A DNA stretch of 64,000 nt from the sequence record MK310184. The stretch is one strand, 5' to 3'. Below are positions 2,486 to 58,625 of this stretch, piece after piece. The notes beneath the pieces were generated by a model. The model saw only the letters and a program-made list of their open reading frames with translations, ran no database searches and was not told where the DNA came from. The translations under genes and the position numbers were made by a program. This stretch comes from Phage NC-G. Each line of letters opens with the position of its first letter. Position 1 is the first letter of the stretch.

Positions 2486-3082
2486 TTAATTACCACGGGC
2501 TGCATTAGCAACGGCGTAAGCGTACTGAATATTAGCATCTTTAAACATACCTTTAGAGGTATCTATTTCCGCCTTAAAGCCACCTTTAGTCATAACATCG
2601 GCAAATTCTTTACGGAAAGCCATTGCATCAAGACCTTTCCATGCGGATTTGTGCTTGGCAAATTCAAGTCCGGCGAAGTTAACTGCTTTAGCTAATTTAT
2701 TATCAATAGTCCATTTACCTGCTTTAGGTACAAATACCGGACCTTTCTGTTTAGAGAACAGTTTTAAATTCCAGCGACGAAGGTCACCGTCAGCTTTAAC
2801 AAAAGCTGCGTCCAAGTTACTAGCAACAACATCTTGGATATGGGCAAATTTAAGCCCATCAGCTTCAATATTTAGGTCGTTACGCCAGCGAAGTCCTTCC
2901 CAAGCGAAAGCTTTAAAGTCGGAAGCTTTTGTAGCCAAGTACCGTTCAATAGGAGCTGTTTTAGCGTCAAAACCATTTCCTGGGCGGTCAACGCCGTTTC
3001 CTCGGTAAGTCCACTCATCTTTATTAATACCGCTGACCTTTCCTACAGAAGCTTCGGCGATAAATTCTTTATACGTTTTCAT
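2486..3082 (-). CDS. ipIII: Internal protein III-like, 198 aa
   Basis: MKTYKEFIAEA leader; size and position next to e match T4 ipIII. Confidence 0.6.
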   Translation of the reverse strand: MKTYKEFIAEASVGKVSGINKDEWTYRGNGVDRPGNGFDAKTAPIERYLATKASDFKAFAWEGLRWRNDLNIEADGLKFAHIQDVVASNLDAAFVKADGDLRRWNLKLFSKQKGPVFVPKAGKWTIDNKLAKAVNFAGLEFAKHKSAWKGLDAMAFRKEFADVMTKGGFKAEIDTSKGMFKDANIQYAYAVANAARGN

Positions 3083-3124
3083 ACGGGTTCCTTAAAGGTA
3101 AATATTTTAATTAGCCTGTTCAAG

Positions 3125-3165
3125 TAACTGTAGATATACTATCACAATTCTAGGAGATGTAAACT
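3125..3165 (-). promoter_or_regulatory. Early promoter-like element upstream of the ipIII-like gene
   Basis: Minus strand reads GTTTACA, 16 nt, TGATAGTAT. Confidence 0.4.
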
Positions 3166-3563
3166 TATTTGTAGGTTTTCATCCAATTCTTGAACAAAGC
3201 CGCGACGTCTTTCTCTTTAACGTTCAGTTTAACGTCCAACATTTTACCACCCGCTGCTCTCGTTTGGCGAATCTTAGCAGTACCGGTTTCGCCATTCCAC
3301 TCAACATAATACTGTCCAGTGTTCATTGCAATACCATCGCCATAGTCTTCATTTTTAGAAGTGGTGAATGCCAGCTTCATAGTCTTAGATACACGAGCCT
3401 GCATGCCTGACTGAAGGGCATTACGAACGCGAATAACCTGAGGAGTGGCCTGGGTTAGGTTCTCATTCAGTTCTTCAGTGAACTCTTCAGATTCAAACAT
3501 CGCCAAAAGTTCTTTAGATGCAGGAATTACATTCTCTGCGATAAATTCATTATAAGTTTTCAT
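3165..3563 (-). CDS. Additional internal-protein-like capsid-targeted protein, 132 aa
   Basis: [11 protein letters not shown] leader; sits between e and the ipIII-like gene, where T4 has no gene. Confidence 0.55.
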
Positions 3564-4044
3564 ATGCTTTCCAAGTACCTGTTTTAAATGTTGAAATCAC
3601 GCGCTTAGCACGATTAGGAGTTTGTTTATACCAACGGGATTGAGCCAGGTTAACTGCCGCATCGTTCCAACGTTTCTGTTGGAGCATACGTAAGGAGTTA
3701 GTGAACCCTGCTACACCTGCTTCACCCATTTGGAAGACCATATTAATTAGTGCACAACGACGAACTTCATCCAGTACATCATAAACAGGTTTCAATTTAG
3801 GATTACGCAGAATAGCTCTACGAGCATTTTCAACCGACCGGTTAAAGAGTTGTTCGGCTTCAGTCATTGTAATACGACCATTACAAACTCGACCCATAAG
3901 TTTATCAAGTTCGGCACGAGCAACATCTTTAGAAGGATTCTTGGTTATCAATTGGCCGATGCCAATAGTCCAATAACCCTCGGTATCTTTATACAAATCA
4001 AGTTTAAGGCCTTCGTCAATACGAAGCATTTCAAAAATATCCAT
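3550..4044 (-). CDS. e: Endolysin (T4 lysozyme, muramidase)
   Basis: 164 aa; [30 protein letters not shown] and [30 protein letters not shown] are near-identical to T4 lysozyme including the catalytic E11/D20/T26 context. Confidence 0.95.
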
Positions 4045-4760: not shown

Positions 4761-5344
4761 TTACGGCATTCCTCAATAAAAGAATTCAATGTATTTTTCT
4801 TAGTGATATCGTCGTATAGCTTTTTAACTTTAGAAATACGAAAAGGCACTTCAATAACTGCAGTCCATAAAAATGATGCGATAAGACCTAAGATAGCCGC
4901 AGACATAGCTGAAGCGAATACAGAAATAGGCAGGTCGTTATCTGTTGTCAGGAAAAACCCTAGGAGTGGGAAAAATAATATACCCATCCAAACATAGAAT
5001 CTAGAACTCACCAATTTGTCATATTCATCACTCCACGTACGAAAACCATATTTTTCACTATAACAAATCAATGGGTCCGGTGTTTGTTCTTTATGTGGTT
5101 TCGCTTGCCACCCATTTACGATATAACCCATTCTGAACTCCTCAATTAAAAGTCGTTTCATTTCAGCAGTACAGCCTGACCAATCTACTGTACTGGCTGA
5201 AATTCCTTCATCACCATCATCAAGATTCAGCCAGGACTTTTTAATAATCATATTCTCACCACTTGGGATAATAATTCCGGCATTTTCTGACCTACGGATG
5301 AAGTTTGTATCAATACCCATACACCCAGGTTCATAAAGGGCCAT
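4757..5344 (-). CDS. Hypothetical membrane protein, 195 aa, ending in FIEECRK
   Basis: Two hydrophobic segments (FYVWMGILFFPLLGFFL and AAILGLIASFLWTAVI); C-terminal motif shared with two other ORFs. Confidence 0.5.
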   Translation of the reverse strand: MALYEPGCMGIDTNFIRRSENAGIIIPSGENMIIKKSWLNLDDGDEGISASTVDWSGCTAEMKRLLIEEFRMGYIVNGWQAKPHKEQTPDPLICYSEKYGFRTWSDEYDKLVSSRFYVWMGILFFPLLGFFLTTDNDLPISVFASAMSAAILGLIASFLWTAVIEVPFRISKVKKLYDDITKKNTLNSFIEECRK

Positions 5345-6030
5345 TACCAGCCCTCCATAGGGAATTCCAGATAAACTTGGGCATTAACGCGGATTTCATT
5401 GGTAATATTTTTAACACGGTCAGTGTTACGAGATACACGTCCAAACCAGCGCCAGCCGTTACTTACCGTACGAGAACCAGTATGCCAGGTTTGCCAATCA
5501 AACTGCAAGAGTGTACGGTCCGGAGCTTCCCACTGTTCTAATTCACCTGATTCAATTTTGGCCAAGACTTCTTTATGCCATTGGCGATAAATCAATTCAC
5601 CTTCTGGGATTTCACTAAAGGTGGCTTCACCGGTAGCAAAATGGGTAGGACACACATCAGCGTTAACAAGACCAAGAATGTGTTCAGACAAATAGTGAGG
5701 ATTGTCATAATCGGGTTGACCTGCAGTAATAAAATGTTGGCCCGTTGGAATAGGTGGACGTGGAACATCGTCGTGGTGATAACCTGGGATAGCCGGATAC
5801 CAGCCAGGCATCAACATATGCACACGTGAATCAAACACTACTTGATCATTATTCCAATCATCAGGCAAGTTCATAATAAAAGAGCGAGTAATAGGACCAC
5901 CATTATTATAAGCAAATTCTAAACTACAGTTGAAGAACATAGGCTCGTTCTTGATTTTATCATTAGAAATACCGCCAGCAAAACCACCTACTGCACGAGC
6001 TTTAGAATTAAAAGTTTTCGGACCGTTCAT
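5344..6030 (-). CDS. Hypothetical protein, 228 aa
   Basis: Long ORF, same strand, abuts neighbours. Confidence 0.5.
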   Translation of the reverse strand: MNGPKTFNSKARAVGGFAGGISNDKIKNEPMFFNCSLEFAYNNGGPITRSFIMNLPDDWNNDQVVFDSRVHMLMPGWYPAIPGYHHDDVPRPPIPTGQHFITAGQPDYDNPHYLSEHILGLVNADVCPTHFATGEATFSEIPEGELIYRQWHKEVLAKIESGELEQWEAPDRTLLQFDWQTWHTGSRTVSNGWRWFGRVSRNTDRVKNITNEIRVNAQVYLEFPMEGW

Positions 6031-11990: not shown

Positions 11991-12018
11991 TGTGAAATTA
12001 TTTTTAGTTTAAACCCCC

Positions 12019-12040
12019 TAAAAGGAGACCGAAGTCTCCT
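12019..12040 (-). terminator. Rho-independent terminator hairpin
   Basis: GGAGACcgaaGTCTCC stem flanked by A/T runs just downstream of the 12045 gene stop. Confidence 0.5.
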
Positions 12041-12044
12041 TTCA

Positions 12045-12662
12045 CTATTTACGGGTCTTTTCGAACTGTGCTGCGTCACCTGCAAGGCGGCCCGCTTGGC
12101 GAAGTTTGTTATTGATTTCTTCGCGCATAGGCTGGGTATACTTAAGGCCTTCAACCGTCAGATAGAGGCGATAAAGGTCCGGGGTATCCAGGTTGTTAAT
12201 GTGTTGACCATTACGAAGAGCGTTGAATTCACGAACAAGGTGTTTAGTTTCAGATTCGATTTCCGAAACCAAAGAAGCCAGCTGGTTATATTTTTTAACT
12301 ATAGTGCTGGTGTCAAACTTGATTTTAGGTTTAGGAGCTTCTTTTACAGGCTCTGCTTTAGGTGTCGGTTTCGGTGCTGCAACTTTGGTCTGAGCCGCGG
12401 GTTTAGAAACAGGAGCTTTGGCTGGTTTAGCAGGCTTAGTAGCGCCACCGGCTACGATATCTTTAAAAGCTTTGGAAGCTTTGTAATATTCTTTCTGGTT
12501 ACTAGTATCAAAACCATACATATCATAGACGTTTTTAAAGAATTCGGTAGTGGTTTTAGTCCCAGAAATTTTATCATAAGCCGCTTGCCACATATCTTTA
12601 GTCATGCGAACGCCGGCTTCACTCAGAACGCTTTCGTTCAAAAATTCATTGTAAGTTTTCAT
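12045..12662 (-). CDS. Internal-protein-like capsid-targeted protein with a Pro/Ala/Lys-rich linker, 205 aa
   Basis: MKTYNEFLNES leader; KPAKPAKAPVSKPAAQTKVAAPKPTPKAEPVKEAPKPK low-complexity segment; late-promoter motif upstream. Confidence 0.6.
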   Translation of the reverse strand: MKTYNEFLNESVLSEAGVRMTKDMWQAAYDKISGTKTTTEFFKNVYDMYGFDTSNQKEYYKASKAFKDIVAGGATKPAKPAKAPVSKPAAQTKVAAPKPTPKAEPVKEAPKPKIKFDTSTIVKKYNQLASLVSEIESETKHLVREFNALRNGQHINNLDTPDLYRLYLTVEGLKYTQPMREEINNKLRQAGRLAGDAAQFEKTRK

Positions 12663-12690
12663 TGGTATTCCCTAAGTTAATTAACTTATC

Positions 12691-12698
12691 TATTTATA
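12691..12698 (-). promoter_or_regulatory. T4 late-promoter motif TATAAATA
   Basis: Exact TATAAATA on the minus strand about 30 nt upstream of the 12662 start codon. Confidence 0.5.
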
Positions 12699-12700
12699 CA

Positions 12701-12727
12701 AAAAGCCCGACCTTTCGGAAGGGCGGT
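12701..12727 (-). terminator. Terminator hairpin
   Basis: GCCCgacctttcggaaGGGC stem followed by a T-run on the minus strand. Confidence 0.45.
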
Positions 12728-12730
12728 GAA

Positions 12731-13285
12731 TCAGTTCTTATAGAATCGGAACGGGTTTACATGGAAGGCTAACATAGCTTTAGGGATTTTACGAGACAAA
12801 AGACTCTTAAGCTTCCAGCCACAGTACACTCGAAGGTAAAATGTGATTCCACCAACCTTAAGATAAGGAACTGAAGCAAAGACTCCCCATGCTTCGTCAT
12901 TCCACATCCACAACCAACCATGGTGAGCTTTATCAGGAGAACCGGATTCAACATCAGGATTACCACGATAATGGAATTCTGAGCTACAATCGCGACCTAG
13001 TTTATGGTAAGCAAAGTTATAAGCTTTATTTCGCCATAGCCAAGCTACTCTCTGGAGATAAACGCCGAAAGGTAGTTTTCTGATTTTAGCCCAACGTTTA
13101 ATATGGCCCTTGTCACCGTCAATTGGATTATCATATGTCATCATCCAATCAAAACCGTATGGCAATTTACCGGTCTTTTTATTGTAGAAAGGAACTACAA
13201 AAGGCGCAAGGATAACAGCCAGAACCATAGAGATAAAATCTAGTGGGACCAACAGAATCCAACTCAAATATTTTAAAAGTTTCAT
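12731..13285 (-). CDS. Hypothetical N-terminally membrane-anchored protein, 184 aa
   Basis: N-terminal hydrophobic segment LSWILLVPLDFISMVLAVILAPFVV; late-promoter motif upstream. Confidence 0.5.
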   Translation of the reverse strand: MKLLKYLSWILLVPLDFISMVLAVILAPFVVPFYNKKTGKLPYGFDWMMTYDNPIDGDKGHIKRWAKIRKLPFGVYLQRVAWLWRNKAYNFAYHKLGRDCSSEFHYRGNPDVESGSPDKAHHGWLWMWNDEAWGVFASVPYLKVGGITFYLRVYCGWKLKSLLSRKIPKAMLAFHVNPFRFYKN

Positions 13286-13311
13286 ATTATTTCCTAAGTT
13301 AGTTTACTACA

Positions 13312-13319
13312 TATTTATA
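13312..13319 (-). promoter_or_regulatory. T4 late-promoter motif TATAAATA
   Basis: Exact TATAAATA on the minus strand, directly after a terminator hairpin and upstream of the 13285 start. Confidence 0.5.
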
Positions 13320-13320
13320 C

Positions 13321-13348
13321 AAAAAAGGCCCAACCTTTCGGAAGGGCC
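13321..13348 (-). terminator. Terminator hairpin closing the tRNA cluster
   Basis: GGCCCaacctttcggaaGGGCC followed by TTTTTT on the minus strand. Confidence 0.5.
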
Positions 13349-13399
13349 TTTAACCTAGGGTAACCTTGTCGGGGTTCCACCTGCTAGGGCAAGTGTTTG

Positions 13400-13491
13400 T
13401 ACGAAACGCCGGGATTCGAACCCGGTTATTAAGCAGTTGACGCTACTCAATATTTTTAAAAGGCCATATCTCGACCATATCCGAACGTTCC
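13400..13491 (-). ncRNA. tRNA-like RNA with acceptor stem and T-arm but no canonical anticodon arm
   Basis: Perfect T-arm CCGGG-TTCGAAT-CCCGG; 7/7 acceptor pairing between CGGAACG (13491..13485) and CGTTTCG (13407..13401); no D or anticodon stem could be built by hand. Confidence 0.35.
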
Positions 13492-13559
13492 GTCAAAACG
13501 CTACTCGGCTTACGGCAAAGATATTTCCTCGAATCGATAATTCGATGCGCCGTTTCAGC

Positions 13560-13660
13560 TGTGATGTAAGGGAACATTAACAGATCGTAAAGATTTGTTA
13601 ATGCCAGTCCTTACCCAGGGAACATCAGTCCGACGACTTACCGGTAGCGACCCGGTTTCT
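13560..13660 (-). ncRNA. Structured small RNA candidate between the tRNA-like element and tRNA-Arg
   Basis: Nested inverted repeats (CATTAAC/GTTAATG, GTAAGG/CCTTAC, TGATGT/ACATCA, CCGG/CCGG), no ORF; T4 carries two stable small RNAs in its tRNA cluster. Confidence 0.3.
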
Positions 13661-13663
13661 TGT

Positions 13664-13739
13664 TTGGTCGAGACAGTAGGGATCGAACCTACGACCCAGG
13701 ACTTAGAAGGTCCTTGCTCTTCCTTCTGAGCTATGCCTC
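13664..13739 (-). tRNA. tRNA-Arg (anticodon TCT)
   Basis: Hand-folded cloverleaf: acceptor CGAGGCA/TGTCTCG, D-stem GCTC/GAGC, anticodon stem AGGAC/GTCCT with loop CTTCTAA, T-arm GTAGG-TTCGATC-CCTAC, encoded CCA. Confidence 0.8.
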
Positions 13740-13743
13740 GTAT

Positions 13744-13818
13744 TTGGCGGACGTGCATGGATTCGAACCATGGACCAATTGATTAACAGTCAACTGCTCT
13801 ACCACTGAGCTACACATC
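13744..13818 (-). tRNA. tRNA-Asn (anticodon GTT)
   Basis: Hand-folded cloverleaf: acceptor GGATGTG/CACGTCC, D-arm GCTC-AGTGGTA-GAGC, anticodon loop CTGTTAA, T-arm CATGG-TTCGAAT-CCATG, encoded CCA. Confidence 0.8.
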
Positions 13819-13822
13819 CAAA

Positions 13823-13896
13823 TTGGTGACCCTGGGTGGAATCGAACCACCATCCAGCGATTATGAGTCGCTCGCTTGACCGTCCAGCTACAGGGC
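13823..13896 (-). tRNA. tRNA with CAT anticodon (Met, or Ile if lysidine-modified)
   Basis: Hand-folded cloverleaf: acceptor GGCCCTG/CAGGGTC, anticodon stem AGCGA/TCGCT with loop CTCATAA, T-arm GGTGG-TTCGATT-CCACC, encoded CCA; D-stem slightly imperfect. Confidence 0.7.
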
Positions 13897-13973
13897 CAAT
13901 TCTATTATGAAAGGTTCTTTGAGGGAAGAACCTTTGGTAATAGAGGGTACTTATTAATAATAACACATAACTC

Positions 13974-14264
13974 TTAAAGCATATTAATGTATGTGCTTTT
14001 AATACAATTAAGATTCAAAGGATTTTTAAAAATATCATAATCCTCTGGACCTGTTTCAGTTTCAATAAAGAAATCAAAATTCACCGTATTGAATTTACGG
14101 TCTTCAAAAACCAATTTAACATTGGAATGGCTACGACCTATTTCAACACTTTCAACTTCAAAACACGTTAAGATGCCATAATCGTCAATCAATTGCTTTG
14201 CGGCATCTTGGTCTGATTTATACCCGTTATTAGCCTTGTCACCTATAGATGCGTAAAGAATCAT
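13974..14264 (-). CDS. Hypothetical protein, 96 aa
   Basis: ORF in the track. Confidence 0.4.
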   Translation of the reverse strand: MILYASIGDKANNGYKSDQDAAKQLIDDYGILTCFEVESVEIGRSHSNVKLVFEDRKFNTVNFDFFIETETGPEDYDIFKNPLNLNCIKSTYINML

Positions 14265-14668
14265 GCTTGACCCTCGTCTACAATAGTATGGGTGATGGCA
14301 TTAACAATCTGCCACCAGTCAAAACGATCAGAACCGTAACGAGGCTTTTTCTCATTTTCGTTAATAATATCACGTAGTTCGTCTTCAGAAAATGCTTTAG
14401 CGATTAAATCGGTATAGCCGCCACGTGGATAATAATTATCACCTGCAAACAAAAGGAAATTTACCTTTCCGGAAGGAATATACGCTTCCTTAGGATATTT
14501 GTTTCCTGCATGGTCTACCACTTCAATATAACGGTAAGGAATATCAGTACTTTCAACCCATTGCCAAGCCGCGGCAGGGGATTCAAAAGCATCAACACCT
14601 AAACGGTTATCTTCATCTTTAGACGGGTTATTTTCATAATCCGCATATACATAATATTCAACGTTCAT
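14261..14668 (-). CDS. Hypothetical protein, 135 aa
   Basis: ORF in the track with 4-nt overlaps to both neighbours. Confidence 0.45.
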   Translation of the reverse strand: MNVEYYVYADYENNPSKDEDNRLGVDAFESPAAAWQWVESTDIPYRYIEVVDHAGNKYPKEAYIPSGKVNFLLFAGDNYYPRGGYTDLIAKAFSEDELRDIINENEKKPRYGSDRFDWWQIVNAITHTIVDEGQA

Positions 14669-14874: not shown

Positions 14875-14915
14875 TAGGGCTATAGTATCACCACTAGAGC
14901 CCGTTGTACACAATT
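14875..14915 (-). promoter_or_regulatory. Early promoter plus stem-loop cassette (PeSL-like)
   Basis: Minus strand GTGTACAacGGGCTCTAGtggTGATACTATAGCCCTATCAAC. Confidence 0.5.
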
Positions 14916-15187
14916 TATTTCAAATAAATTGCATATTTTTTATAGCCAGCTGTCTCGTGGCGCAACCCTTTGTCATTAGCAAAGCGTTCAATATTATTAA
15001 TTTGATTTTGGTCGAGTTCTGAAATATCAAATACAAAAAAGTTTCGCTTATTGCCTAAAGTTACATGATTAGTCAAATCGATGTTATAGAGATGATTTAT
15101 ATTATCAATCATGGCCTTAACAGATTTGTTGATTTTTACTTCTTCATTAAGAATGGATTCAGCGATAAATTCTTGATAAGTTTTCAT
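14915..15187 (-). CDS. Internal-protein-like capsid-targeted protein, 90 aa
   Basis: Start at MKTYQEFIAESI; the track ORF extends upstream into the promoter leader. Confidence 0.55.
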   Translation of the reverse strand: MKTYQEFIAESILNEEVKINKSVKAMIDNINHLYNIDLTNHVTLGNKRNFFVFDISELDQNQINNIERFANDKGLRHETAGYKKYAIYLK

Positions 15188-15214
15188 TTTGATTTCCATT
15201 TGGATGTTTTGTTT

Positions 15215-15255
15215 TGATAGGGTAATAATATCACTACCCCATCTAAAAGTAAACA
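15215..15255 (-). promoter_or_regulatory. Early promoter plus stem-loop cassette (PeSL-like)
   Basis: Minus strand GTTTACTtttagatGGGGTAgTGATATTATTACCCTATCAAAACAAAAC; this leader plus the first codons are duplicated at 15547..15607. Confidence 0.5.
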
Positions 15256-15266
15256 CGGTTTATAAA

Positions 15267-15578
15267 CTATTTTATTCCACGTGATGCAATTGTGTTCTGT
15301 CGTTTAACACCGGTTTGTTTAAAGTCGTGATTGTCGATTTGATCGGTGCGAGCAACTCCGAATGATGATTTGATCTTAGCTTTAGATCCTTTAGTTATAG
15401 AAATAAACATCTCGGAAGCCCCTTTCTTAAAGTCTGAAGCGATTACTTCAACGCCGTTCTTAGCAAGTGACTTCAGAATTGCATCCGCATACTCATCGTC
15501 AAGACCAGCCAGAGTATTAATAATGAATGTCTTTGGTGCAACAGAAGCTTCGGAGATAAATTCTTGATAAGTTTTCAT
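15267..15578 (-). CDS. Internal-protein-like capsid-targeted protein, 103 aa (position of T4 ipI)
   Basis: MKTYQEFISEA leader; paralogue of the 1336..1635 ORF; sits immediately upstream of 57B as ipI does in T4. Confidence 0.6.
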   Translation of the reverse strand: MKTYQEFISEASVAPKTFIINTLAGLDDEYADAILKSLAKNGVEVIASDFKKGASEMFISITKGSKAKIKSSFGVARTDQIDNHDFKQTGVKRQNTIASRGIK

Positions 15579-15604
15579 TTTGATTTCCATTTGGATGTTT
15601 TGTT

Positions 15605-19075: not shown

Positions 19076-19083
19076 TATAAATA
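19076..19083 (+). promoter_or_regulatory. T4 late-promoter motif TATAAATA upstream of gene 53
   Basis: Exact TATAAATA 28 nt before the gene 53 ATG, at the divergent junction with gene 4. Confidence 0.55.
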
Positions 19084-19110
19084 TTAATATTATTTATACT
19101 CGGAGGCCCT

Positions 19111-19713: not shown

Positions 19714-21455
19714 TGATTAACATGTCTGATAACGTAAGTTGGTTCGTCGGTGTAGTTGAAGACAGAATGGACCCACTCCAACAAGGCCGAGTACGCGTAC
19801 GCGTCTGGGGTATGCATCCATATGAAAAAGTACAAGGTCCTGTAAAAGGCCTTCGTACAGAAGATTTACCATGGATGTCTGTATTAATGCCTACATCTTC
19901 TGCCTCTGTTTCAGGTATCCAAACCGCTATGACCGGTATGGTCCCGGGTACACAAGTTTACGGACACTTTCTTGATAAGTGGAAATTAAACGGGCTTGTC
20001 CTCGGTACATACGGTTCGGCTTCAAAACAAAAGGCAAATCCAAACGAAGGTTTTAGTGACCCTACAGGACAGTATCCACTTTATTTAGGTAATGATGCCG
20101 CTGCACTAAACCGAGGTGGTGAAGTTGGATATGATGCCACTTCTAACGTAATACAAGATGCAAACACCGATGTAGGTATTAATCCGGATGGATTAGATTT
20201 AAGCCAAGTTAAGCCTGATGATAATCCTAATTTCACAATAGAAAACATGCTTCATCGTGATGAGGGTCTTCGTCTGAAGGTATATTGGGACACCGAAGGA
20301 TATCCTACCATAGGTATAGGTCACCTTATTACTCCACAACCTATTAGAGATATGACTCAGATAAACAAAATATTATCTAATCAAATAGGTCGAGAAGTTA
20401 AAGGTAATCCAGGTGCAATATCAATGGACGAGGCTTCTAAGTTATTCCAAGAAGACCTTAAAAAAGTCCAAAACGATATAGGTCGACATAGTGTTGTAGG
20501 TCCGGTTTACAATAAAGAAAACCGTTCAAGGCAAATGGCCCTTGAAAACATGGCGTTCCAAATGGGATTAGGCGGACTTGCTAAATTCCGTGGTATGCTC
20601 AGTGCTATGTTAATAGGCGATTATAAAAAGGCATTTGAGGAAGCTCGTAATTCAGTATGGTTCAACCAAACTAAAGGCCGAGCATCAAGGGTGTCAATGA
20701 TTATCCTTACAGGTAATATGGAATCATACGGTATTATGGCCCCTAAAGAAAGAGAATTTAATGGCCGTTCTTATAGGATGATTCAAACTTTTGCAGCCCC
20801 TACAAATTCCGACCCAGCCGACCCATGGACTCCGGAAGATACAAGGATTCTTTTTAAAGAACCTGATTCTAGTTATAAAGGCGAATACCCGTATGTCCAA
20901 ACCATGCAAACTGAAGGCGGGCATATCCAAGAATTCGATAACACCCCAGGGCAAGAACGTTACCGATTAATCCACCCTACAGGTAGTTACGAAGAAGTCG
21001 CTCCTGACGGACGTAAAACTTCTAAGACGGTAGCCGACGGGTATTATATGACCCAAGGCGATTCTAATACTTATGTTGGTGGTAATAATAAAGTCAATAT
21101 AGGTGGCGATGAAACCTATTATAATATGGCAAACGTTCGACGTCAAACCGACGGTTCTGAAAGCATCCATATTCGTGGTAATGAAACCAAAACAGTAGAA
21201 GGCGACGGGACCCTTATTGTTAAAGGAAATGTTACGGTTATTGTTGAAGGCAATGCTGATATAACTGTTAAAGGTGATGCAAAAACCTTAGTCGAAGGCA
21301 ACCATGATTATACAGTAAACGGGAATGTTAAGTGGTCAGTAAATGGAAACGTCGATATGACTGTTGCCGGTAATTGGTCTGAAACTATGTCGACCATGAG
21401 TTCTATTGCATCCGGTCAATATACTATTGATGGTTCGAGGATTGACATTGGCTAA
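19713..21455 (+). CDS. 5: Baseplate hub / cell-puncturing protein gp5 with lysozyme domain
   Basis: 580 aa; internal lysozyme domain (GLRLKVYWDTEGYPTIGIGHLIT) resembling gene e; C-terminal beta-helix VxGxxxxx repeats. Confidence 0.95.
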   Translation: MINMSDNVSWFVGVVEDRMDPLQQGRVRVRVWGMHPYEKVQGPVKGLRTEDLPWMSVLMPTSSASVSGIQTAMTGMVPGTQVYGHFLDKWKLNGLVLGTYGSASKQKANPNEGFSDPTGQYPLYLGNDAAALNRGGEVGYDATSNVIQDANTDVGINPDGLDLSQVKPDDNPNFTIENMLHRDEGLRLKVYWDTEGYPTIGIGHLITPQPIRDMTQINKILSNQIGREVKGNPGAISMDEASKLFQEDLKKVQNDIGRHSVVGPVYNKENRSRQMALENMAFQMGLGGLAKFRGMLSAMLIGDYKKAFEEARNSVWFNQTKGRASRVSMIILTGNMESYGIMAPKEREFNGRSYRMIQTFAAPTNSDPADPWTPEDTRILFKEPDSSYKGEYPYVQTMQTEGGHIQEFDNTPGQERYRLIHPTGSYEEVAPDGRKTSKTVADGYYMTQGDSNTYVGGNNKVNIGGDETYYNMANVRRQTDGSESIHIRGNETKTVEGDGTLIVKGNVTVIVEGNADITVKGDAKTLVEGNHDYTVNGNVKWSVNGNVDMTVAGNWSETMSTMSSIASGQYTIDGSRIDIG

Positions 21456-54959: not shown

Positions 54960-55014
54960 AATTAGTCTCTTGTTGGTGTATAAATATAGTTATATTTATA
55001 ACTGAGAATTAGAC

Positions 55015-56735: not shown

Positions 56736-56741
56736 ACAAAA

Positions 56742-56768
56742 AAGGCCCAACCTTTCGGAAGGGCCAAT
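56742..56768. terminator. Terminator hairpin, same family as 13321..13348
   Basis: GGCCCaacctttcggaaGGGCC between convergent genes. Confidence 0.5.
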
Positions 56769-56795
56769 AACCATAAAATGGCTATACACACTAGA

Positions 56796-58613: not shown

Positions 58614-58625
58614 TATTTATAAATA
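58614..58625. promoter_or_regulatory. Overlapping divergent late promoters for genes 26 and 51
   Basis: TATTTATAAATA reads TATAAATA on both strands (plus 58618..58625, minus 58614..58621). Confidence 0.55.

What the first reader, a model, noticed from the sequence alone, without database searches (positions are those of the whole stretch)
12691..13319. Late-promoter-driven membrane-anchored protein next to the tRNA cluster
The 184-aa ORF at 12731..13285 has one N-terminal transmembrane segment and an aromatic-rich body. It is preceded by an exact TATAAATA that immediately follows the tRNA-cluster terminator, so it is probably made late, unlike its PeSL-driven neighbours. Candidate roles include a lysis or superinfection-exclusion component.
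Basis: partly seen in the sequence, partly recalled or inferred. Interest (0 to 1): 0.4.

Follow-up and report, generated by a model that had tools for sequence, protein, structure and literature searches.

The report
Late-made phage membrane protein, likely lysis accessory
This is a real, conserved gene of a JS98-like (T4-type) phage encoding a membrane-anchored protein of the uncharacterised DUF7338 family; it sits on a portable terminator-plus-late-promoter cassette, and its distant relatives are repeatedly embedded in phage lysis gene clusters.

Summary
There is a 184-aa ORF (12731..13285) with one strongly hydrophobic N-terminal helix and the most aromatic-rich body in the window. An exact TATAAATA lies 26 nt upstream, just after a stem-loop terminator.

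The motif fits this genome's late-promoter geometry: 14 of 18 copies are intergenic and 18-48 nt before an ATG.

The protein is a full-length member of Pfam DUF7338 and the orthologue of JS98 orf136. It shows no sequence or fold similarity to holins, spanins, Imm or Sp. Its high-confidence model (pLDDT 95.6) has no PDB relative.

Two things are new:
- **Mobile module.** The gene is flanked by direct repeats of the stem-loop (+TATAAATA) element. IME08 has the empty site, QL01 has the gene order swapped, and a Mosigvirus carries the same cassette next to rI.
- **Lysis context.** In at least 11 unrelated temperate-phage contexts, DUF7338 lies inside or beside complete holin-endolysin-spanin cassettes.

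The best reading is a late-expressed accessory lysis protein whose mechanism is unknown. Superinfection exclusion is a weaker rival. Nothing here is tested experimentally.

The parts
12731..13285 (-). CDS, 184 aa, 21.7 kDa, pI 9.8. DUF7338 family protein: N-terminal hydrophobic helix (about residues 7-33) plus a basic, Trp-rich alpha/beta domain.
   Evidence: The ORF is listed. Pfam PF24027 matches at 2.7e-64 over residues 1-183 and phrog_2143 at 3.7e-80. The AF2 model has pLDDT 95.6. Composition is and purifying selection.
13292..13295 (-). Shine-Dalgarno AGGA, 6 nt before the ATG.
   Evidence: Read directly from the sequence.
13312..13319 (-). T4-type late promoter motif TATAAATA, 26 nt before the ATG.
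   Evidence: The motif is found. Its geometry matches the other 13 intergenic copies. It is conserved with the gene in other Dhakaviruses and in Mosigvirus ESh27.
13321..13348 (-). Upstream stem-loop GGCCCTTCCGAAAGGTTGGGCC plus a T6 run. It is an intrinsic-terminator-like element closing the tRNA/stable-RNA transcription unit, and is the left copy of the direct repeat.
   Evidence: It folds at -17.9 kcal/mol. Repeat copies are listed.
12700..12724 (-). Downstream stem-loop GCCCTTCCGAAAGGTCGGGC plus a T5 run. It is the terminator of the DUF7338 gene and the right copy of the direct repeat.
   Evidence: It folds at -11 kcal/mol and is picked up by the terminator scan. The IME08 empty-site junction falls within the repeat.
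12691..12698 (-). Second TATAAATA, 28 nt before the ATG of the next gene.
12045..12662 (-). Neighbouring late gene, 205 aa. Its N-terminus MKTYNEFLNE resembles the capsid-targeting sequence of T4 internal proteins. It is an independently exchangeable module.
   Evidence: The ORF is listed and matches phrog_2280. Variants of 154 and 157 aa, or absence of the gene, occur in relatives. The internal-protein reading is my inference from knowledge of the T4 IPI-III N-termini.

Best explanation
The ORF encodes a bitopic inner-membrane protein of the DUF7338 family. It is transcribed late from its own gp55-type promoter (TATAAATA). A stem-loop terminator insulates it from the upstream tRNA/stable-RNA unit, and a second copy of the same stem-loop terminates it.

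Gene plus one repeat copy form a portable module. The module is gained, lost and reshuffled by recombination between the repeated stem-loop elements. This is the behaviour described for PeSL cassettes, but with a late promoter.

The product most likely acts as an accessory component of host lysis, made together with the holin and spanins. Its TM helix anchors a conserved, strongly basic, Trp-rich alpha/beta domain at the membrane surface. There it would either modulate the timing of holin triggering (antiholin-like) or help destabilise the envelope.

Status of each step:
- Shown: the ORF, the motif geometry, the repeat structure, the presence/absence polymorphism, family membership, the absence of known homologues and the lysis-cassette neighbourhood of relatives.
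- Inferred: late transcription, membrane insertion and orientation, and the lysis role.
- Speculative: the specific mechanism.
For: (1) Promoter.
- The exact TATAAATA lies 26 nt before the ATG, and 14 of 18 copies in the window are intergenic and 18-48 nt upstream of an ATG.
- A terminator lies immediately 5'.

(2) Mobility.
- IME08 has a single hybrid cassette exactly where the window and JS98 have cassette-gene-cassette.
- QL01 and vB_EcoM_005 have the order tRNA, Ip-like gene, stem-loop, DUF7338.
- JS10 keeps the DUF7338 gene, but its match to this 2-kb region starts only at query position 701, so the 205-aa gene's sequence is not matched there.
- Mosigvirus ESh27 carries the gene after rI, flanked on both sides by the same stem-loop, with TATAAATA on the upstream copy.
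- The same stem-loop is also combined with early promoters or with no promoter.

(3) Family.
- The protein is a full-length DUF7338.
- There are 858 50%-identity clusters, nearly all 165-200 aa.
- W82, R85 and N86 are invariant; T50, D52, G57, G156, W157 and K158 are at least 93% conserved in 166 sequences.
- The C-terminal domain is basic in 92% of members (median net +7) and contains 6.5% Trp.

(4) Lysis linkage in relatives of 25-40% identity. All of these cassettes also contain a holin, an endolysin and spanins.
- L121: holin_3_3, lysozyme, DUF7338, Rz/Rz1, with 3-nt and overlapping junctions.
- L123: holin_4_1, lysozyme, DUF7338, Rz-like.
- L118/L119: DUF7338, holin_4_1, M15 peptidase, Rz-like.
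- L125: Mu-like prophage with tail fibre, DUF7338, holin_8, holin_3_7, M23, i-spanin, o-spanin; the DUF7338 stop overlaps the holin start.
- L122: DUF7338, 84 aa, SAR-like lysozyme ... Rz/Rz1.
- L124: DUF7338, two small TM proteins, GH19, Rz/Rz1.
- L077 group: DUF7338, holin, endolysin, Rz/Rz1.
- L017/L074: DUF7338, GH24 lysozyme, Rz/Rz1.
- L097: endolysin, DUF7338.
- L072: Rz/Rz1, DUF7338.
- Six of the last seven look-ups were lysis-adjacent.
- The holins belong to at least five families and the endolysins to at least five types.

(5) In ESh27 the insertion site is next to the antiholin gene rI.
Against: - No transcript data exist. In Slopekvirus/RB43-type phages the gene follows a terminator with no TATAAATA. 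In Felixounavirus it lies 19 nt after a tRNA inside the tRNA cluster, so late timing is not universal for the family.
- In this window the gene is 8.7 kb from the endolysin gene e. It is not next to any lysis gene.
- About 14 other contexts show no recognisable lysis neighbour. These include sites after tail-fibre or Gly-rich proteins, or among unannotated genes.
- Edges of lysis cassettes are also classic moron insertion sites, for example lambda bor. This weakens guilt by association for the cases at cassette ends.
- Several lysis-adjacent contexts share related Rz genes, so they are not fully independent.
- Conservation of the same polar motif next to unrelated holins argues against a specific holin-binding (RI-like) mechanism.
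- Topology is unresolved. The flank-charge difference favours N-in/C-out in 106 family members against 32. The very basic C-domain would be more typical of a cytoplasmic location.
- The gene is dispensable in nature, since IME08 and others lack it at this locus.
Confidence: 0.5

Rival explanations
1. Superinfection-exclusion or cell-surface protection moron. The membrane-anchored domain would block DNA entry or mask or alter an envelope component used by incoming phages. The gene travels as a self-contained expression module because it benefits whichever phage carries it.
For: - The gene is accessory and variably present among near-identical Dhakaviruses.
- It is carried on its own promoter/terminator module.
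- In several prophages it sits directly after tail-fibre and tail-fibre-chaperone genes, or at the prophage end. This is the slot where cor, llp and gtr-type genes are typically found. Examples are L006, L015 and L016, and L009/L078/L086 after Gly-rich proteins.
- In L077-type loci it is bracketed by terminators.
- A single-TM anchor with an external domain resembles lactococcal Sie2009-type proteins (my knowledge).
Against: - Expression in the T4-type phages is late only, whereas T4 Imm and Sp act early (established knowledge).
- There is no similarity to Imm, Sp, Cor, Llp or any PADLOC model.
- In L121, L123, L124 and L125 the gene is translationally coupled inside late lysis operons rather than being an autonomous moron.
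- A polar motif that is invariant across phages with very different tails and receptors is unexpected for a phage-specific exclusion factor.
Confidence: 0.17
2. It is itself a holin of the T4 T (class III) architecture, with one TM and a large C-terminal domain, as some GenBank records label it.
For: - Automated 'holin' labels appear in UPEC07, UPEC01, vB_YenM_P8, EcoM2, HMD-P10 and vB_CbrM_HP1.
- It has a single N-terminal TM plus a domain of about 150 aa, like T (my knowledge of T topology).
- It has a late promoter.
- It lies in lysis cassettes.
- In L097 and L072 no other holin was recognised next to it.
Against: - There is no sequence similarity to Phage_holin_T or any holin family. There is no structural match in the PDB.
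- It co-occurs with one or two bona fide holins in L118, L121, L123, L125 and L077. T4-type phages already encode T.
- It is dispensable in IME08-type phages.
- It lacks the cytoplasmic N-terminal domain of T: only about 5 residues precede the TM.
Confidence: 0.08
3. A membrane-associated accessory protein with a role unrelated to lysis or exclusion. Examples would be countering a membrane-acting host defence, as RIIA/B counters RexAB, or an enzyme acting on a lipid-linked or envelope substrate. Its linkage to tRNA clusters and lysis cassettes would simply reflect recombination hot spots.
For: - Invariant polar residues (T50, D52, D58, R85, N86, K158) look like a catalytic or ligand-binding site.
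- The gene lies within or next to tRNA clusters in Dhakavirus, Karamvirus, Gaprivervirus, Slopekvirus and Felixounavirus. These regions contain homing endonucleases.
- About half of the contexts show no lysis genes.
Against: - There is no hit to any enzyme or defence-related family or fold.
- Lysis adjacency occurs in about 11 of about 25 contexts. It persists across rearrangements and swaps of holin and endolysin type, which is more than hot-spot coincidence would predict.
Confidence: 0.2

Closest known systems
Pfam DUF7338 (PF24027) / PHROG 2143; JS98 orf136, 'similar to RB43 ORF080w'
   Same: Full-length match (216.6 bits against a cut-off of 27). The protein is 97.8% identical to JS98 orf136. 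It has the same length, N-terminal helix and conserved motifs TxDNPxxGD, WLWRN and GWK.
   Different: Nothing differs; it is a typical member. The family has no assigned function, and no paper in the searchable library contains the family name.
PeSL mobile regulatory cassettes of T4-type phages (Arbiol et al. 2010, PMC2839356; Comeau et al. 2014, PMC4122927)
   Same: It is an intergenic composite of stem-loop terminator, promoter and Shine-Dalgarno sequence. The element is repeated on both sides of a non-essential ORF, and a single copy marks the 'empty site' in a close relative. This is the pattern those papers illustrate for RB49 ORF192 against phi1. The same stem-loop is also found fused to early promoters in these genomes.
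   Different: The promoter here is the 8-bp late TATAAATA, not a sigma70-like early promoter. Neither paper mentions late-promoter versions. Mini-circle formation could not be tested.
Accessory lysis regulators: T4 RI antiholin, P2 LysA, Mu gp25 releasin
   Same: These are small membrane-anchored proteins encoded in or near lysis cassettes in addition to holin, endolysin and spanin. They are non-essential and late-expressed. In L121 and L123 the position between endolysin and spanin matches that of P2 lysA (the P2 gene order is from my knowledge).
   Different: There is no sequence or fold similarity. The anchor is strongly hydrophobic, not SAR-like. The domain is larger (about 150 aa) and conserved beside unrelated holins, so a holin-specific binding mode is doubtful.
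T4 holin T (class III)
   Same: Both have one TM near the N-terminus followed by a large C-terminal domain, and both have a late promoter.
   Different: It is not homologous. It lacks the cytoplasmic N-domain of about 34 aa. It co-occurs with other holins and is dispensable.
i-spanins (Rz family)
   Same: Both have an N-terminal TM anchor, lie in lysis cassettes and are expressed late.
   Different: The domain is an alpha/beta sheet domain, not a coiled coil. There is no partner o-spanin. Genuine Rz/Rz1 pairs sit beside it in L017, L072, L077, L121, L122, L124 and L125.

Membership tests
Pfam DUF7338 (PF24027) | Full-length HMM match above the gathering score | tested here: met
   216.6 bits against a cut-off of 27, residues 1-183 on profile positions 1-179 of 180.
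Pfam DUF7338 (PF24027) | Conserved motifs and N-terminal hydrophobic helix shared by family members | tested here: met
   T50, D52, G57, W82, R85, N86, G156, W157 and K158 are present. They are at least 93% conserved in 166 sequences, and the hydrophobic segment averages 31 aa.
T4-type (gp55) late promoter | TATAAATA at -10, intergenic, a few tens of nt upstream of the start codon | tested here: met
   The motif is exact and 26 nt before the ATG. The other 13 intergenic copies in the window are 18-48 nt from their ATG.
T4-type (gp55) late promoter | A late transcript 5' end just downstream, dependent on gp55/gp33/gp45 | not testable with these tools
   This needs RNA-seq or 5' RACE. No transcriptome of a Dhakavirus was found.
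PeSL mobile regulatory cassette | Stem-loop terminator within a conserved intergenic element that flanks variable ORFs | tested here: met
   The stem-loops fold at -17.9 and -11 kcal/mol. Direct repeats flank the gene, and IME08 has a single copy.
PeSL mobile regulatory cassette | Strong sigma70-like early promoter in the element | tested here: not met
   No -35/-10 pair was found in 13286..13360. A late TATAAATA is present instead. The element works like a PeSL but is not one by definition.
PeSL mobile regulatory cassette | Excision as mini-circles | not testable with these tools
   This needs inverse PCR on phage DNA.
Holin (T4 T / any Pfam or PHROG holin family) | Sequence or structural homology to a holin family | tested here: not met
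Holin (T4 T / any Pfam or PHROG holin family) | Is the hole-forming membrane protein of its cassette | tested here: not met
   It co-occurs with recognised holins in L118, L121, L123, L125 and L077. Lethality was not testable.
i-spanin (Rz) | N-terminal TM, periplasmic coiled coil and a cognate o-spanin lipoprotein gene | tested here: not met
   The model has an alpha/beta domain with five strands. Separate Rz/Rz1 pairs with lipoboxes lie next to DUF7338 in relatives.
T4 Imm / Sp superinfection exclusion | Homology to Imm or Sp; early expression | tested here: not met
   There are no Pfam, PHROG or PADLOC hits. The only promoter motif is the late type.
Antiholin / lysis regulator (functional class) | Delays or tunes holin triggering; interacts with the holin | not testable with these tools
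   Only the genomic position inside lysis cassettes supports this.
Bitopic membrane protein, N-in/C-out | One TM helix; orientation by flanking charges | tested here: inconclusive
   The TM segment is clear: the Kyte-Doolittle maximum is 2.45 and the model has a helix at 2-33. Net flank charge favours N-in in 106 of 166 members against 32. The C-domain, however, is strongly basic, with a median net charge of +7.

The most novel reading that the evidence does not exclude
DUF7338 may define a previously unrecognised, widespread class of phage lysis-cassette protein with a fold not represented in the PDB. It would be a fourth kind of component beside holin, endolysin and spanin.

The family is found in temperate phages of Proteobacteria, T4-type phages, Felix O1-type phages and jumbo phages. 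It would control lysis timing or envelope breakdown through a conserved, cationic, Trp-rich membrane-surface domain. In T-even relatives it spreads as a late-promoter version of the PeSL recombination cassette.
Probability: 0.35. Interest if true: 0.7.

Novelty: new variant of a known kind. Interest (0 to 1): 0.45.

Why it matters
Phage lysis of Gram-negative hosts is usually described as a three-step pathway of holin, endolysin and spanin, with a few lineage-specific regulators.

This family forms 858 clusters at 50% identity. It keeps turning up inside lysis cassettes built from unrelated holins and endolysins, and it has a confident novel fold. That makes it a concrete candidate for an additional conserved player, and one that is easy to test genetically. 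Natural isogenic-like pairs already exist (JS98 or this phage against IME08).

Separately, the locus shows that the modular shuffling described for early-promoter PeSL elements also operates with late promoters. It also shows that one stem-loop 'linker' can be combined with either promoter class. This helps explain how T4-type hyperplastic regions exchange genes without disturbing temporal regulation.

Tried and rejected
- **Homology to known lysis or exclusion proteins.** Pfam (E<=1), PHROGs (E<=0.1), NCBIfam and PADLOC gave only DUF7338 and phrog_2143. A PDB sequence profile search gave nothing below E = 0.9.
- **Rfam on 12000..14500.** It found only the three tRNAs.
- **PhageMaP essentiality data for the Felixounavirus Bas63 homologue.** The main text does not mention the gene, and no supplement is held.
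- **Literature on JS98 late promoters.** Nothing specific was found.
- **Genome-contig scan.** It returned only 8 loci. Two of them are likely phage contigs mis-binned to Flagellimonas and Gemella.
- **GenBank labels.** 'Holin' and 'amidase-6 domain' on orthologues were not accepted, because nothing supports them.
- **Compositional foreignness.** This was rejected: the ORF has GC 0.402 against 0.398 for the window.
- **Cleavable signal peptide.** I consider this unlikely on inspection. The only A-x-A-like site is followed by Pro, and the hydrophobic stretch is about 27 residues long.
Full report
**Where we are.** The window is from a JS98-like T4-type phage (genus Dhakavirus). The 2-kb region around the finding is 94.6% identical to phage MN04 and about 93% identical to JS98. 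All genes in this part of the window run on the minus strand.

**The observation.**
- The ORF listing gives an ATG-initiated 184-aa ORF at 12731..13285 (-).
- On the minus strand the upstream sequence reads AAAGGCCCTTCCGAAAGGTTGGGCCTTTTTTG-TATAAATA-TGTAGTAAACTAACTTAGGAAATAAT-ATG.
- The stem-loop folds at -17.9 kcal/mol and is followed by six U.
- It lies about 315 nt beyond the last of three tRNA genes, Met, Asn and Arg, at 13665..13897.
- TATAAATA occurs 18 times in the window against 8.0 +/- 3.0 expected.
- 14 of the 18 copies are in the about 5% of the window that is non-coding. Each of those is 18-48 nt upstream of an ATG on the same strand. The copy in question is 26 nt upstream.
- The protein has one strongly hydrophobic N-terminal segment, with a maximum Kyte-Doolittle 19-residue window of 2.45.
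- It is the most aromatic protein in the window, at 18.5% W+Y+F and 5.4% Trp.
- Synonymous changes dominate in comparisons with orthologues, at 69 against 15 codons versus the VR20 orthologue (L026). It is therefore a functional gene.

**A correction.** The next gene downstream is 12045..12662, 205 aa. Its N-terminus MKTYNEFLNE resembles the capsid-targeting sequence of T4 internal proteins (my inference). It is preceded by a near-identical stem-loop plus TATAAATA at 12691..12698. The first gene with a stem-loop plus early-type promoter is the one after that.

**A mobile module.**
- The two stem-loop (+TATAAATA) elements are direct repeats flanking the gene.
- IME08 has, at the same place, one hybrid element. 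Its left part matches the upstream copy and its right part matches the downstream copy, and the gene is absent. JS98 has the same arrangement as the window.
- In QL01 and vB_EcoM_005 the order is tRNAs, Ip-like gene, a different stem-loop, then DUF7338 without its own TATAAATA.
- JS10 keeps the DUF7338 gene, but its match to this 2-kb region does not extend over the 205-aa gene.
- In the Mosigvirus ESh27 a 74%-identical copy lies at another locus, immediately after rI. It is flanked on both sides by GCCCCTTCCGAAAGGTTGGGGC. The upstream copy is followed by TATAAATA and the downstream copy by an early-type promoter.
- A scan of viral contigs shows this stem-loop in front of DUF7338 genes and Ip-like genes with TATAAATA, in front of e.8-like genes with an early promoter, and between convergent genes with no promoter.
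- This is the behaviour described for PeSL cassettes (PMC2839356). Here it occurs with a late promoter, which neither PeSL paper mentions.

**What the protein is.**
- It is a full-length member of Pfam DUF7338 (2.7e-64) and of PHROG 2143. Both are without function.
- tblastn finds it in 592 phage records: Dhakavirus, Mosigvirus, Karamvirus, Gaprivervirus, Slopekvirus/RB43-like, Felixounavirus, some jumbo phages and Pseudomonas phages. It is not found in the bulk of Tequatroviruses (compare).
- An exhaustive profile search finds 858 clusters at 50% identity, nearly all 165-200 aa and matched end to end.
- W82, R85 and N86 are invariant. T50, D52, G57, G156, W157 and K158 are at least 93% conserved in 166 sequences.
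- The C-terminal domain is basic in 92% of members, with a median net charge of +7, and is Trp-rich.
- AlphaFold2 gives a confident model, with pLDDT 95.6 and pTM 0.84. It has a helix at 2-33, several short helices and a five-stranded antiparallel sheet.
- NCBIfam and PADLOC give no hits.
- No paper in the searchable library contains 'DUF7338'.
- Orientation in the membrane is unresolved. The charge difference across the hydrophobic segment favours N-in/C-out (106 against 32 family members). The very basic C-domain points the other way.

**Context in distant relatives.** This was the most informative evidence. Using Pfam marks on called neighbours, PHROG scans and my own check for Rz/Rz1 pairs, DUF7338 turned out to be part of lysis cassettes again and again:

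| Locus | Gene order |
|---|---|
| L121 | holin_3_3, lysozyme, DUF7338, Rz with embedded Rz1 |
| L123 | holin_4_1, lysozyme, DUF7338, Rz-like |
| L118/L119 | DUF7338, holin_4_1, M15 peptidase, small TM protein, Rz-like |
| L125 (Jeongeupia Mu-like prophage) | tail fibre, DUF4376, DUF7338, holin_8, holin_3_7, M23 peptidase, i-spanin, o-spanin |
| L122 | DUF7338, 84-aa TM protein, SAR-like lysozyme ... Rz/Rz1 |
| L124 | DUF7338, two small TM proteins, GH19, Rz/Rz1 |
| L077 group | DUF7338, holin, endolysin, Rz/Rz1 |
| L017/L074 | DUF7338, GH24 lysozyme, Rz/Rz1 |
| L097 | endolysin, DUF7338 |
| L072 | Rz/Rz1, DUF7338 |
| L021 | endolysin three genes upstream |

- Junctions are often 3-4 nt or overlapping, as in operon members rather than autonomous morons.
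- The accompanying holins and endolysins belong to at least five different families each.
- In every resolved case a holin, an endolysin and spanins are also present. DUF7338 is therefore an extra component, not a substitute.
- Other contexts place it right after tail-fibre and chaperone genes or Gly-rich proteins, or among unannotated genes.
- Roughly 11 of about 25 distinguishable contexts are lysis-adjacent. That is several-fold above what a 3-5-gene cassette in a 50-100-gene phage would give by chance. The contexts are not fully independent, because their Rz genes are related, and cassette edges are also moron hot spots.

**Interpretation.** I commit to a late-expressed accessory lysis protein, at about 0.5.
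- Late timing in this phage is inferred from the promoter motif and the insulating terminator.
- The lysis role is inferred from conserved neighbourhood in distant relatives and from the insertion next to rI in a Mosigvirus.
- The mechanism is open. One option is an antiholin-like timing regulator. The other is a cationic, Trp-rich membrane-surface domain that assists envelope breakdown.
- The conservation of one polar motif beside unrelated holins argues for a host-side or membrane target rather than a specific holin partner.

Caveats:
- In this window the gene is 8.7 kb from e.
- In Slopekvirus and Felixounavirus it lacks a late promoter.
- It is naturally dispensable.

Rivals and my estimates:
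- Superinfection exclusion or surface protection: 0.17.
- A holin proper: 0.08.
- An unrelated membrane function: 0.2.

**Novelty and score.** The gene itself is catalogued as a hypothetical protein of a named DUF. Two things are new:
- the late-promoter variant of the PeSL-type shuffling cassette;
- the contextual assignment of DUF7338 to lysis cassettes.

Both are computational and testable. Interest is 0.45.

Noticed in passing
window 13375..13560 (-): A segment of about 150-186 bp between tRNA-Arg and the terminator is absent from JS98 and IME08. It is 98% identical to about 675 Tequatrovirus (T4-type) records. It folds into a tRNA-like cloverleaf with a GGTTCGAATCC T-arm, yet neither ARAGORN nor Rfam calls it. 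It is probably the counterpart of a T4 stable RNA (rnaC/rnaD type). It is evidence of recent exchange between genera in the tRNA region.
   Followed up: partly
window 12045..12662 (-); also 14915..15256 (-) and 15267..15590 (-): Three ORFs begin with MKTY(N/Q)EF(L/I), like the capsid-targeting sequence of T4 internal proteins. The 205-aa ORF has a KPAKPAKAP-type low-complexity middle. In QL01 and vB_EcoM_005 it is replaced by 154- or 157-aa variants. This looks like a set of exchangeable internal-protein genes.
   Followed up: partly
window about 56740..56770 (-): A third exact copy of the stem-loop GGCCCTTCCGAAAGGTTGGGCC plus a T-run, with no promoter after it. The same arrangement is conserved in other Dhakaviruses.
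   Followed up: partly
window 19076..19098, 54979..55000, 58614..58625: Three places have back-to-back or overlapping TATAAATA motifs on opposite strands. Each is 18-33 nt from a divergent ATG. These are apparent bidirectional late-promoter pairs.
   Followed up: no
L003 (Felixounavirus warpig) 3001..3558; L028 (Karamvirus) 5001..5546: In Felix O1-type and Karamvirus phages the DUF7338 gene sits inside the tRNA gene cluster, 19 nt after a tRNA-Leu in warpig. In Gaprivervirus and Slopekvirus it is within about 1 kb of a tRNA. Linkage to tRNA clusters therefore recurs across two phage families, possibly through homing-endonuclease-driven co-conversion. An HNH gene lies in the warpig cluster, and a homing endonuclease lies under the AnYang match.
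   Followed up: partly
L124 1517..4559: In one metagenomic phage the DUF7338 and lysis genes lie directly after a diversity-generating retroelement: an mtd-like target, bAvd and reverse transcriptase.
   Followed up: no
window 3553..4044 (-) and 20238..20729 (+): There are two T4-lysozyme-like coding regions. One is the e endolysin homologue (75% identity). The other is a 41%-identical domain that is probably the gp5 baseplate lysozyme.
   Followed up: no
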